From Flectonema sp. DT1601 (Eukaryota): DNA of 64,000 nt. Made by a program: the position numbers and the translations under genes. The stretch spans positions 868,001 to 932,000 of the forward strand of contig OZ025802.1 in NCBI GenBank assembly GCA_964019425.1, given 5' to 3'. The notes beneath the pieces are model-generated. The model did no database searches and was not told where the DNA came from. It saw nothing but the letters and a program-made list of their open reading frames with translations. Shown piece after piece: positions 9,301 through 11,506 of this stretch (its first letter is position 1; every line of letters starts with the position of its first letter).

Positions 9301-11506
9301 AGAAAACCTCCCGCCTCCCTCTCAAACTTTTTTAAAAACAGGGGAAAATAAACCCCTAGAAAGAATTTCTAAAGAGACAGGCGAACTTTCACTAGCGAAT
9401 GATTGGGTCATCCTCGACGATGTCGGTGATAACCGCCTAATTGTTCCTCTTGAAGTGTGCCATGTCTCGTCCTCTCTAAGACCAGACATTTTTATTTATT
9501 CTTTTTTTGCGAAAAGAGCACTGATTCTGGAGCTGACGTGTCCAAATGAAGATCGTTTCGAAACCTCTCATGTCTTAAAGGAAAAGAAATACCTAAAGCT
9601 AAGAGACTCGATCATCGCTAATGGCTTCGACTGTAACATTTTTACTATTGAAGTTGGCGTACGAGGAAACATCTGCATGGACCAGCTGAACATCTGGACA
9701 CGTCACATCGGTTCACCTTTAGCACCAACAAAAGCTTTATTTTGTGAATGCACCAGAATCGCCAGACAGTGCTCATATGTTCTGTTCCAGACGAGGAACC
9801 TCCCCACGTGGCATTCAAGACCACTAATGCGCAGCATTAAAGAAGAACCTGCCACTGCAAGTTTTATAAAAGATGGTAAAGAAATCTTCCCTGTGGAAGA
9901 AGTCAAAATCCACAAAGTAACAAAACTGAAAACGATCGAAAAGCTCACCATTGAAAGATCGTGGCTTGAGAAATGTTTTATCTGGCAAACTTGTTACGCA
10001 TCGGCTCTTTCTATTCTACTTATTGCCAATGGTTCTTCCTCCCCGGCCCCTTCTGTTTTGTTAGATGAGGATGAGCTCACTGGACTCTCCTTGTCATTCT
10101 CTTCTATTTCTTCCATCTCTTTCCAGACTCCCCCACCTGAACTCATGTCAACGGGATCGCAAACACTTCCTGCTGATTTCGCTATAGTGATAAGAACTCA
10201 ATCTGACATGGGTTCTCAAACCCCCTTGTACAAAAAAAAAGAAGGAAAATTAAGGCTGAAACTTTCCTTGAAATGCCAGATTTTAGAAAACGAATTAGAG
10301 CAAATGAAAGAACGAATTTTTTATGTTCTATTTTTATTTTACTTTAATGCGATGTCAGCCTCCCTCGAGAAAGACAAGCAGTTACTAAATGGATTACCTG
10401 TTGAGATCAAAGCTACCAACCAGGATCCATCCTCACTTCCTCCTGCGCCCCCTGTTTTAATTATTGAAAAAGATAGAAAAGAATATGAACTTCTGGAAGG
10501 AGTAATTCAACGGTTAACAGCAGAACGCGATGAATCGAAGACTTCTCTTTCTGCACTAGTTCGACAATATGACTTAGTGGAAGATTACAGGAAACGTGAG
10601 CTCGCAAATCTGACTCAGAGAGCAGACCTATCGGAAATGGCGCTCTTTAATTACCATCAAAGGTTTGTTCTTCTGTCGAACGAATTGGAGACCAAATGTA
10701 ATGAGGAAAGAGAAAGTAAAATAAGACTTTTCTATACTCAACAGGAGGTCGAGAGTTTGCGTGCCGCGCGTCCCCGTATGACCCACTTTAGTCAACAAGT
10801 TTCCCCCCGAACCCCCGTTCTGTATGAATCTGTTGCTATGATGAAGATAGCAAAGAACTACCTCTCGCTCTTTACAACTACGAGTAGTCTTTTTACTCCT
10901 CTTATTAAACCCCTTATCCCTACCCTTAATTATATCACCCCTCTTTGTCCTCTAGCCTCAATTCCTCCGACAATGCCGCAGAGTGAAGCTCTCGACCGCA
11001 CGCCGACCAAGATTTTACGACAAGAGAGTCACGTTATCTCCGTTAAAGAGAATACACCTATTGCGAGACAATGGTCCGAGGGTAGGATTGACTTACTCGA
11101 GAACTACTGTCGAGCAGTAGATGACTCTCTCGAAACAAACGAGAAAGCGGCAGAGCTCTCAGAACAACTTCTGGATGCCCAACTTCGCCTCTCGGAGCTG
11201 AATCACCAACGGTGTACAACTCACGCAGAGCAGCTTGAGCAATCCATGATGTTAACGGGACTGGCGAGCGATTTAAATGCTCAACTCGCCTTGGCACGGT
11301 CTCAAATTGCGGCCCTGAAGTTCCAATTAGCTTCATGGGCAGAAGGTTTGAGTCCGCCAGACACAGAAGAACATGAGGAAAATGAAACTCCGCCGAGAAA
11401 GTCTGAGCGTTCAACTCTGAAAAAACGAACCCCTCCATCAAGATATCGTTACAATCGAAGGAGATGTTCTGCTGATGACGTTCACGGTGACTCCACCCCC
11501 TTGTAA
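6380..11506 (+). CDS. Non-LTR retrotransposon polyprotein: N-terminal Zn fingers, reverse transcriptase, CCHC zinc knuckle, restriction-like endonuclease, C-terminal coiled-coil extension
   Basis: Zn-finger-like CPLC..H..C and CPECGKLF..H..C. RT motifs APGPNCIPY, RPIAVGN, QKGF..GCIEH, WVDLADAFGSVKH, GVFQGCVSSPTLF, AFADDL, FKYLG. Knuckle CVLC..HVLTGC. RLE motifs GRFTWRHDSVL, RPDI..ILELTCP..KEKKY. Start codon uncertain: TTG at 6380, frame open from 6230. Confidence 0.95.
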   Translation: MQEAISRSALDGDKTLVAKCPLCFETYLKGPVAHFRRNCKFSKEFKDYKSRFPPSTHSQVKDCYHLPCPECGKLFKSIATRAKHCVNGTCKGTPLSPLTGNNSDLEPPFVGESVDFKTSQTAFVPYNSTTPTFTPLHPSRLKFRSFGTEWKDIDVSAAEKLQTFTVETENSSKPADQLDKLLKTVYQICSGFFEETKRNLPRKQKSREEVILDQEKLECRLEMKQLRQELRKSGPSIENAVKWKEARTRMKRIFRMYRNLEKKNLFKKLQDKFRQNPFTAIKEELQKEDPQPPSLDIPEEKIIEHFKNNYCDNEKKKTDFTHPSFLPKSDYKTMDDIQFPSFEQFGILLSKKKNKCAPGPNCIPYVVWKKVPTFMEALYKVLKRIFELKAYPDSWGLAFVTMLPKPNSDGKDISKTRPIAVGNCDGKIFNTVIQEAVANHTLSKFNFQKGFRKGVSGCIEHATITSEIFKEVKALRKNLTIVWVDLADAFGSVKHQLIFFALKYFGIHERIIGFYKRYYSSMRVQIRVGEGLTPTIPFEVGVFQGCVSSPTLFNLVFQLLLFSLAVHQQEAYEFNNKSLQLLVAAFADDLQLTTSSKAGAKLLIKSLEQFLSWSRGMKAKPQKCIAHSFVQGKPANPDLKINNVPITNLQEAGEFKYLGRWFEPNAKEQKLRERLTTFTRNFLKKVDAMPLYGSQKAWSVQHLLLSRLTWSLMIHDLSLPFAKKMDKIIKPFLKKWWGFVRSANTVILFTGSKNTVGLRHKRVVTLYKQAQSIKLDILRSSQDSDMHGVYNVIMEKSSNWSKKFSASAEWERLIKFFSYRSLAKQSAGLGHRLRDLRTTRPDLLKRFEVEATDELLNSLNKLQVQGQWKEWSKCMINDFTWNKVLREGNPAYISFQLKAVTNTLPSQDNLKRWNITNVDQNCVLCGKVNPTLRHVLTGCPVSLTQGRFTWRHDSVLKRIVIFLEELIIKANKRKENLPPPSQTFLKTGENKPLERISKETGELSLANDWVILDDVGDNRLIVPLEVCHVSSSLRPDIFIYSFFAKRALILELTCPNEDRFETSHVLKEKKYLKLRDSIIANGFDCNIFTIEVGVRGNICMDQLNIWTRHIGSPLAPTKALFCECTRIARQCSYVLFQTRNLPTWHSRPLMRSIKEEPATASFIKDGKEIFPVEEVKIHKVTKLKTIEKLTIERSWLEKCFIWQTCYASALSILLIANGSSSPAPSVLLDEDELTGLSLSFSSISSISFQTPPPELMSTGSQTLPADFAIVIRTQSDMGSQTPLYKKKEGKLRLKLSLKCQILENELEQMKERIFYVLFLFYFNAMSASLEKDKQLLNGLPVEIKATNQDPSSLPPAPPVLIIEKDRKEYELLEGVIQRLTAERDESKTSLSALVRQYDLVEDYRKRELANLTQRADLSEMALFNYHQRFVLLSNELETKCNEERESKIRLFYTQQEVESLRAARPRMTHFSQQVSPRTPVLYESVAMMKIAKNYLSLFTTTSSLFTPLIKPLIPTLNYITPLCPLASIPPTMPQSEALDRTPTKILRQESHVISVKENTPIARQWSEGRIDLLENYCRAVDDSLETNEKAAELSEQLLDAQLRLSELNHQRCTTHAEQLEQSMMLTGLASDLNAQLALARSQIAALKFQLASWAEGLSPPDTEEHEENETPPRKSERSTLKKRTPPSRYRYNRRRCSADDVHGDSTPL

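What the first reader, a model, noticed from the sequence alone, without database searches (positions are those of the whole stretch)
9815..11506. RLE retrotransposon with a ~560-aa extension after the endonuclease
Seen: after the RLE domain ends (~RNLPTW, 9812) the frame stays open for ~560 aa. It has a Ser-rich linker, hydrophobic patches (IFYVLFLFYF), several heptad-like coiled-coil segments (e.g. LEGVIQRLTAERDE, LSEQLLDAQLRLSEL, LNAQLALARSQIAALKFQL) and a basic C-terminus (RKSERSTLKKRTPPSRYRYNRRR). It is intact in both copies. Established: in R2/R4/NeSL/Hero-type elements the RLE is normally near the C-terminus. Inference: an appended ORF1-like multimerisation/RNA-binding or targeting module, which would define an unusual element structure.
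Basis: partly seen in the sequence, partly recalled or inferred. Interest (0 to 1): 0.7.

Follow-up and report, generated by a model that had tools for sequence, protein, structure and literature searches.

The report
Retrotransposon with swappable coiled-coil tail
A multi-copy jumping gene of a single-celled eukaryote carries, behind the DNA-cutting domain that normally ends such proteins, a 563-residue tail that exists in two half-identical versions, both kept free of stop codons, and is predicted to form coiled-coil rods that likely help the protein multimerise on its RNA.

Summary
One 1,758-codon frame runs through zinc fingers, RT, CCHC knuckle and RLE, then 563 more codons. The two window copies differ at 1 of 2,991 bases, so they are not independent evidence. 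Other copies are: the tail exists in two types (A, window; B, 50% identical over its last ~360 aa), both in frame behind nearly the same core and ending at nearly the same place. Neutral drift to that distance would leave ~9-10 stops (0 of 2,000 simulations stayed open). Variants in public runs give dN/dS ~0.3-0.4 in the tail against ~0.07 in the core. So the tail is a selected but fast-evolving protein module, not read-through 3' UTR. It is predicted as three long helices plus a conserved basic end, has no homolog outside this family and no RRM, so it is at most an analogue of ORF1p. The hydrophobic patch is not conserved. Distant relatives carry other cargo at the same post-RLE position (USP deubiquitinase, DarT-like). 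Function is inferred only; host targeting or anti-silencing is a close rival. Repbase could not be checked.

The parts
6230..11506 (+). Single ORF of an R2-group (RLE) non-LTR retrotransposon, copy 2; first ATG only at 7046, behind both zinc fingers, so the true start is unknown
6437..6634 (+). Two N-terminal Cys/His zinc-finger-like motifs (aa 70-89, 118-135)
   Evidence: sequence; weakly aligned to relatives
7589..8356 (+). Reverse transcriptase (RVT_1)
   Evidence: E 3.6e-26; best solved relatives are R2 proteins, E 2.7e-32
9008..9205 (+). zf-RVT with CCHC zinc knuckle (9143-9196)
9479..9814 (+). Restriction-like endonuclease (RPDI ... ELTCP ... IEVG)
   Evidence: motifs; aligned with 30 relatives
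9815..11503 (+). 563-aa C-terminal extension, type A
10028..10234 (+). Ser/Pro/Thr-rich linker, predicted disordered; holds a pyrimidine tract and CAG about 20 nt before an ATG
10235..10390 (+). Predicted helix 1 (ext 141-192), with the non-conserved IFYVLFLFYF patch at 10316-10345
10382..10413 (+). Crossover zone where type-B recombinants leave the type-A sequence in frame
   Evidence: P0059/P0163 alignments; loose end of a run-X1 contig at 10413 reads as the start of tail B
10460..10777 (+). Predicted helix 2 (ext 216-321), heptad-like, 53% identical A vs B
10805..11056 (+). Pro/Ser/Thr-rich linker, 34% identical A vs B
11057..11341 (+). Predicted helix 3 (ext 415-509), 62% identical A vs B
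11351..11503 (+). Acidic then basic C-terminal peptide; 11 K/R in the last 45 residues of both types
11507..11930 (+). Likely 3' UTR (end not fixed), with a strong hairpin at about 11713-11763
   Evidence: z -3.8; run X5 covers to 11656
1..2991 (+). Copy 1 (cut by the window start; extension at 1198-2886), ending 102 nt after the stop at the satellite

Best explanation
The element makes one frame in which RT and RLE are followed by a 563-residue tail that is under purifying selection, is predicted to fold as long coiled-coil helices with a basic end, and likely acts as a built-in multimerisation and RNA-packaging arm, doing in cis the job that a separate ORF1 protein does in other LINEs. Shown: the open frame, two tail types on one core, an in-frame crossover between them, selection on the tail's protein sequence. 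Predicted: the helices. Inferred: that the full frame is translated as one chain, that helices 2 and 3 pair between element proteins, and that the basic end binds the element RNA or serves as a nuclear signal. I put 'selected protein module of the element' at about 0.85-0.9 and this particular job at about 0.45.
For: Two tail types, 177 of 351 aligned residues identical over ext 197-555, both stop-free and ending within a few residues of each other. Of 85 family proteins examined, 8 reach the A end, 13 the B end, and 4 A and 2 B run from the RLE to the end in one frame; 25 of the 33 that cover the RLE end continue into the tail. Neutral simulation to 50% identity: mean 9.9 and 9.3 stops, 0 of 1,000 open in each of two runs; conservative share of changes 0.37 against 0.26 +/- 0.03. 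Helices are more conserved than the linker (111 of 194 vs 26 of 77 identical, p 7e-4); 47 of 58 hydrophobic helix positions stay hydrophobic. Run variants in the tail: 9 silent, 8 missense, 0 stop, one in-frame 3-nt insertion; p 0.007-0.04 against neutrality. Both models give the same long helices; Atlas look-alikes are generic coiled-coil proteins. ORF1ps built of a coiled coil plus an arginine-rich motif, without RRM, are known (PMC3905857, passages), and the L1 coiled coil evolves fast yet is essential (PMC5940361, passages).
Against: Most relatives work without it: 20 of 30 RLE-type relatives end within 49 aa of the RLE, and none shares this tail. No ORF1-type domain is found. Model confidence is low (mean pLDDT 44 and 39) and the heptad score does not beat shuffles. 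The tail changes much faster than the core (dN/dS ~0.3-0.4 vs ~0.07; variable sites 25 of 190 and 24 of 348 vs 9 of 796), which fits host conflict as well. The variant counts are small, come from contigs of depth 2-5, and 3 of the 17 tail variants lie on a type-B contig. A 60%-identical RLE fragment (P0071) stops right after the RLE and an 87% one (P0062) 12 residues later; dead copies or tail-less families cannot be told apart here.
Confidence: 0.45

Rival explanations
1. The tail is a host-interaction cargo: a coiled-coil adaptor that tethers the protein to a host chromatin, transport or silencing factor, to choose insertion sites or escape defence. The A/B swap would be an arms-race exchange.
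For: The same post-RLE position holds a USP deubiquitinase in 7 proteins on at least three branches and a DarT-like domain in one, all plausible counter-defence enzymes; the tail evolves fast and was swapped by recombination; Atlas look-alikes include adaptors such as Spindly and CENP-F (score 0.92-0.93, low shared counts, lead only).
Against: No host homolog or partner found (18 of 18 hits are pieces of this element family); copies lie on many long contigs, with no target site shown; a coiled coil is compatible with either job.
Confidence: 0.3
2. The tail is a captured host or other-element coding sequence that rides along and is of no use to the element; its open frame was inherited.
For: No relative outside this lineage has it; capture at this position is recurrent; constraint is weaker than in the core.
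Against: It would need two captures of 50%-diverged donors into the same frame; the type-B N-terminal piece P0055 is homologous to type A over ext 84-216 as well; no donor gene found; silent changes are in excess among young copies.
Confidence: 0.12
3. The tail is also, or mainly, made as a separate protein, from an internal splice acceptor or by proteolysis, so the element is functionally two-protein with the 'ORF1' behind the polymerase.
For: A pyrimidine tract and CAG lie about 20 nt before an in-frame ATG inside the Ser-rich linker; the host's introns begin GTATG as in several diplonemids (PMC12621601, passages), and euglenozoans trans-splice (recalled).
Against: The host acceptors seen in the window are A/C-rich, not pyrimidine-rich; P0055 has no Met at that place; no 2A motif; the frame is kept across the RLE-tail joint in 25 of 33 proteins.
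Confidence: 0.1
4. Neutral read-through of a former 3' UTR.
For: Low-complexity, T-rich stretches; many database copies break inside the tail.
Against: Chance 2e-14; 0 of 2,000 neutral simulations stay open; many of the breaks are junctions to other inserted DNA and also occur in the core.
Confidence: 0.02

Closest known systems
R2-group non-LTR retrotransposons with a restriction-like endonuclease (R2, R4, HERO, CRE, NeSL; PMC13708176, PMC4640811, passages)
   Same: Single frame with N-terminal zinc fingers, RT, CCHC knuckle, RLE; best solved relatives are R2 proteins.
   Different: 563 aa follow the RLE, which these papers describe as C-terminal; described extra domains (Ulp1-like protease in NeSL/Utopia) are N-terminal, RNase H in oomycete Utopia.
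HERO clade
   Same: RLE motif style (RPDI ... ELTCP) and dispersed copies resemble HERO; the resemblance is recalled, from no call.
   Different: No named HERO sequence was on hand; the element sits on a long branch of its own among unnamed relatives at 26-34% identity.
ORF1p of L1 and of ZfL2-1 (PMC5940361, PMC3905857, passages)
   Same: Coiled coil plus basic peptide; fast evolution of the coiled coil.
   Different: Separate upstream protein in APE-type LINEs, with RRM/CTD or esterase; here fused at the C-terminus of an RLE protein, no sequence homology.
C2-L1Tc of Trypanosoma cruzi L1Tc (PMC2805920, abstract)
   Same: C-terminal nucleic-acid chaperone with basic NLS stretches in a single-frame LINE of a euglenozoan.
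   Different: APE-type element; C2H2 zinc fingers, not coiled coils.
Chlamys Penelope-like elements with C-terminal extensions; Dualen with Josephin (PMC8557442, passages)
   Same: Accessory domains, including deubiquitinase-like ones, appended to a retroelement frame.
   Different: Other retroelement classes; other domains.

Membership tests
R2-group (RLE) non-LTR retrotransposon | Non-LTR-type RT | tested here: met
   Pfam RVT_1 E 3.6e-26; R2 proteins best in PDB, E 2.7e-32
R2-group (RLE) non-LTR retrotransposon | CCHC knuckle and RLE downstream of the RT, no APE upstream | tested here: met
R2-group (RLE) non-LTR retrotransposon | Single ORF with N-terminal zinc fingers | tested here: met
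Canonical R2-group layout | RLE is the last domain (typical layout; I do not count it as defining the group, as 9 of 30 relatives also break it) | tested here: not met
   563 aa follow; relatives
R2-group (RLE) non-LTR retrotransposon | Defined 3' end, target site, target-site duplication | tested here: inconclusive
   copy 1 is cut by satellite, ends of copy 2 not fixed; no genome held
HERO clade | RT groups with named HERO elements | not testable with these tools
   no Repbase sequences; the tree holds unnamed rows only and is the quick tree
HERO clade | Mostly non-specific insertion | tested here: inconclusive
   copies on many long contigs, flanks not readable
LINE ORF1p (L1, Jockey, esterase types) | Separate ORF upstream of the RT | tested here: not met
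   fused downstream of the RLE
LINE ORF1p (L1, Jockey, esterase types) | RRM, CCHC, PHD or esterase domain | tested here: not met
   no such Pfam match in 7 of 7 aligned tail sequences
LINE ORF1p (L1, Jockey, esterase types) | Coiled coil | tested here: inconclusive
   long helices predicted at low confidence, conserved hydrophobic positions, heptad score not above shuffles
LINE ORF1p (L1, Jockey, esterase types) | Homo-multimer that binds RNA | not testable with these tools
   needs SEC-MALS and binding assays

The most novel reading that the evidence does not exclude
The position behind the RLE is a general, exchangeable cargo slot in a broad HERO-like radiation: different lineages have loaded it with a USP deubiquitinase, a DarT-like ADP-ribosyltransferase or, here, a coiled-coil ORF1 analogue that subfamilies swap by recombination like alleles in a conflict with the host. 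This element would be a single-frame RLE LINE that evolved its own ORF1 function at the C-terminus.
Probability: 0.35. Interest if true: 0.75.

Novelty: new variant of a known kind. Interest (0 to 1): 0.57.

Why it matters
R2-group proteins are the model of the minimal, ORF1-less LINE and the main scaffold for RNA-guided gene insertion. A natural family that keeps 563 residues behind the endonuclease, in two exchangeable versions, shows that this end tolerates large cargo and offers a ready test (tail A, tail B, no tail) of whether multimerisation or host tethering helps such an element. The USP- and DarT-bearing relatives suggest an undescribed layer of accessory domains in this group.

Tried and rejected
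No whole genome is held, so ends, target sites and codon-level A/B dN/dS could not be read. Tail search among 966-3,077-aa proteins: 0 of 7,974 candidates. Metagenome scans: 0 of 193 and 0 of 150 pattern matches confirmed. No RNA holder listed: no evidence on expression; runs with small shares (X7, X8) were laid only for variants. Complex prediction of three copies of ext 215-325: no answer, score 0.20 under the mark 0.32, controls not folded: no evidence either way. Fold search of the low-confidence model: only generic long helices, best Z 7.6, none at 8 or more; Foldseek on 'pdb' not run. Tail profile against PDB sequences: best E 0.23. Atlas on the whole tail: best 0.89. Tail vs the element's own N-terminus: probability 0.4%. 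Rfam over 2800-14700: 6 matches, all below gathering; no tRNA. No 2A motif. Pseudo-LTR/hammerhead lead from earlier notes: no copy of 5538-6330 in 11500-13260 beyond low-complexity hits, and the only CTGANGA in the three stretches scanned lies in the last codons of the ORF. Careful tree did not finish; the quick tree is used (rows with under 400 aligned residues were left out, among them P0085 and P0088). Rows dropped: P0180-P0185 from the 91 proteins (distant clusters); 16 consecutive core sites (aa 827-842), a junction/frameshifted stretch. Literature: searches gave 0 papers; searches listed none that describes a coiled-coil, USP or DarT domain behind an RLE, judged from listings and the passages read. 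The Kojima 2020 review is not held; Repbase Reports and paper supplements (e.g. domain tables of large RLE surveys) were not seen and may describe such tails.

Full report
1. The observation. The frame 6230-11506 (+) is open for 1,758 codons. It encodes two Cys/His fingers, an RT (Pfam E 3.6e-26), zf-RVT with a CCHC knuckle and an RLE ending at nt 9814; the best solved relatives are R2 proteins. Then 563 codons follow; chance for that is about 2e-14 and the other five frames hold 23-38 stops. The window's two copies differ at 1 of 2,991 bases, so their agreement says nothing.

2. Setting. The copies lie among arrays of a 142-bp repeat; an N gap at 14660-14859 separates this from giant vWA/Cys-rich genes, so that adjacency is unproven. 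The host is a eukaryote with GTATG intron starts, as in several diplonemids (PMC12621601, passages); a diplonemid host is a guess, partly from recall of such proteins, and was not tested.

3. The family. Searches return many copies on long contigs: clusters of 235, 47 and 14 member sequences. These contigs may come from the same organism or sample as the window, so they are further loci, not further species. Eight public runs of eight studies hold parts of the stretch. All 18 hits of the unbiased search with the tail are pieces of this family: 13 at 85-100% and 5 at 43-59% identity. No outside homolog was found.

4. Two tail types. P0059, P0156, P0157 and P0163 match the window almost exactly through the RLE and to about ext 196 (181 of 192 identical over ext 5-196 for P0163), then switch in frame to a type-B tail that is 177 of 351 identical to type A and ends within a few residues of it. 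A contig of run X1 leaves the window at 10413 with letters that read as the start of tail B. P0055 is the original N-terminal part of tail B (36-39% identical, its end matching B), so the hybrids are recombinants of two old subfamilies. Of 91 proteins examined, 6 belonged to distant clusters and were dropped; of the 85 left, 33 cover the RLE end and 25 of these run on into the tail; 8 reach the A end, 13 the B end; 4 A and 2 B span RLE to end. The 8 that do not run on are mostly junctions to other DNA or frameshifts; P0071 (60%) and P0062 (87%) could be tail-less or dead.

5. Selection. Neutral mutation of the A tail down to 50% identity gives 9.9 and 9.3 stops on average and left 0 of 1,000 runs open under each of two transition biases; the conservative share of changes is 0.37 against 0.26 +/- 0.03. 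Block variance of identity (0.020) is above the neutral mean (0.012) but under its 99th percentile (0.024). Helices are better kept than the linker, 111 of 194 vs 26 of 77, p 7e-4. Of 29 substitutions in the ORF seen in the 8 runs laid, the core has 10 silent and 2 missense, the tail 9 silent, 8 missense and no stop: dN/dS about 0.06-0.09 and 0.28-0.41. The one indel listed in the tail is in frame; two frameshifts are listed in the core. These come from low-depth contigs. Among close protein copies, variable sites are 9 of 796 in the core (after dropping 16 consecutive artefact sites), 25 of 190 and 24 of 348 in the tail (coverage differs by region).

6. Anatomy. Both AlphaFold2 runs (mean pLDDT 44 and 39) give helices at about ext 36-71, 141-192, 216-321 and 415-509 with Ser/Pro-rich linkers. 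No Pfam family passes. Atlas look-alikes of the last 349 residues are unrelated coiled-coil proteins. My heptad score does not beat shuffles. The last 45 residues hold 11 K/R in both types. The IFYVLFLFYF patch is missing from P0055 and the best 19-residue hydropathy is 1.4, so a membrane role is unlikely.

7. Relatives. Thirty RLE-type proteins at 26-34% identity were found (5 more rows lack the RLE layout). Twenty end within 49 aa of the RLE, one is cut short, and 9 carry 124-444 aa tails, none like this one. Four of these, and three more, hold a USP domain (E 2e-10 to 6e-52); P0088 holds a DarT-like domain (E 7e-24). On the quick tree the USP rows fall on at least three branches and the window element on a long branch of its own; independent gains were not tested.

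8. How it likely works. Shown: one frame, two tail types, in-frame crossover, purifying selection. Predicted: long helices. Inferred: one polypeptide whose helices pair between element proteins and whose basic end binds RNA or imports the complex, an ORF1-like job in cis (0.45). ORF1ps of coiled coil plus arginine-rich motif exist (PMC3905857), the L1 coil is fast-evolving yet essential (PMC5940361), and L1Tc has a C-terminal chaperone (PMC2805920). Rivals: host tether or counter-defence cargo (0.3), passenger (0.12), separately expressed tail (0.1), neutral read-through (0.02).

9. Known or new. It is an R2-group RLE element; the HERO label is recalled and untested. It is not an ORF1p member. 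The reviews read describe the RLE as C-terminal (PMC13708176, PMC13580325) and extra domains elsewhere (PMC4640811); C-terminal extensions are known in Chlamys PLEs (PMC8557442). Searches listed nothing that describes such a tail; Repbase and supplements were not seen. Papers seen: passages of PMC5678591, PMC4640811, PMC10161547, PMC9004415, PMC7650587, PMC13580325, PMC8557442, PMC13708176, PMC12621601, PMC5940361, PMC3905857; abstract and outline of PMC2805920.

10. Verdict. Real, selected, not found described; a new variant of a known kind with an inferred function. Interest 0.57.

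Noticed in passing
P0012, P0020, P0025, P0027, P0085, P0180, P0181 (database proteins): Distant RLE relatives with a USP/UCH deubiquitinase domain behind the RLE, Cys and His boxes visible in the full-length ones, on at least three branches; not found described in searches.
   Followed up: partly
P0088, P0084 (database proteins): RLE relative with a DarT-like ADP-ribosyltransferase domain behind the RLE (E 7e-24); P0084 ends in a similar start.
   Followed up: partly
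window 5545-5939: Short AT-rich piece with a sharp right end and a 3' hairpin (z -2.2), found joined into at least ten other copies of this family, in both orientations, in core and tail. A SINE-like element, or this family's own distal tail placed before its head; not resolved.
   Followed up: partly
window 2992-5537 and 13251-14659: 142-bp repeat with three small hairpins per unit, as two arrays in inverted orientation around 3969 (foldback-like), and again up to the N gap; no Rfam or tRNA match.
   Followed up: partly
window 14860-47551 and 51120-64000: Giant vWA and Cys-rich repeat genes: a 10,000-codon exon followed by GT-AG introns and a transmembrane end, and a near-identical tandem paralog or duplicated assembly.
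   Followed up: no
window 12001-12646 and 12951-13050: Three copies of a 212-bp unit and a 17/36-bp repeat downstream of copy 2; may belong to another element.
   Followed up: no
window 6230-7048: No ATG before both zinc fingers; the frame upstream passes through T and A runs, so initiation is likely non-AUG.
   Followed up: no
P0065, P0071, P0075, P0083, P0103, P0062 (database proteins): Older subfamilies of the same lineage at 60-87% identity in zf-RVT/RLE; whether they carry the tail is unknown.
   Followed up: partly
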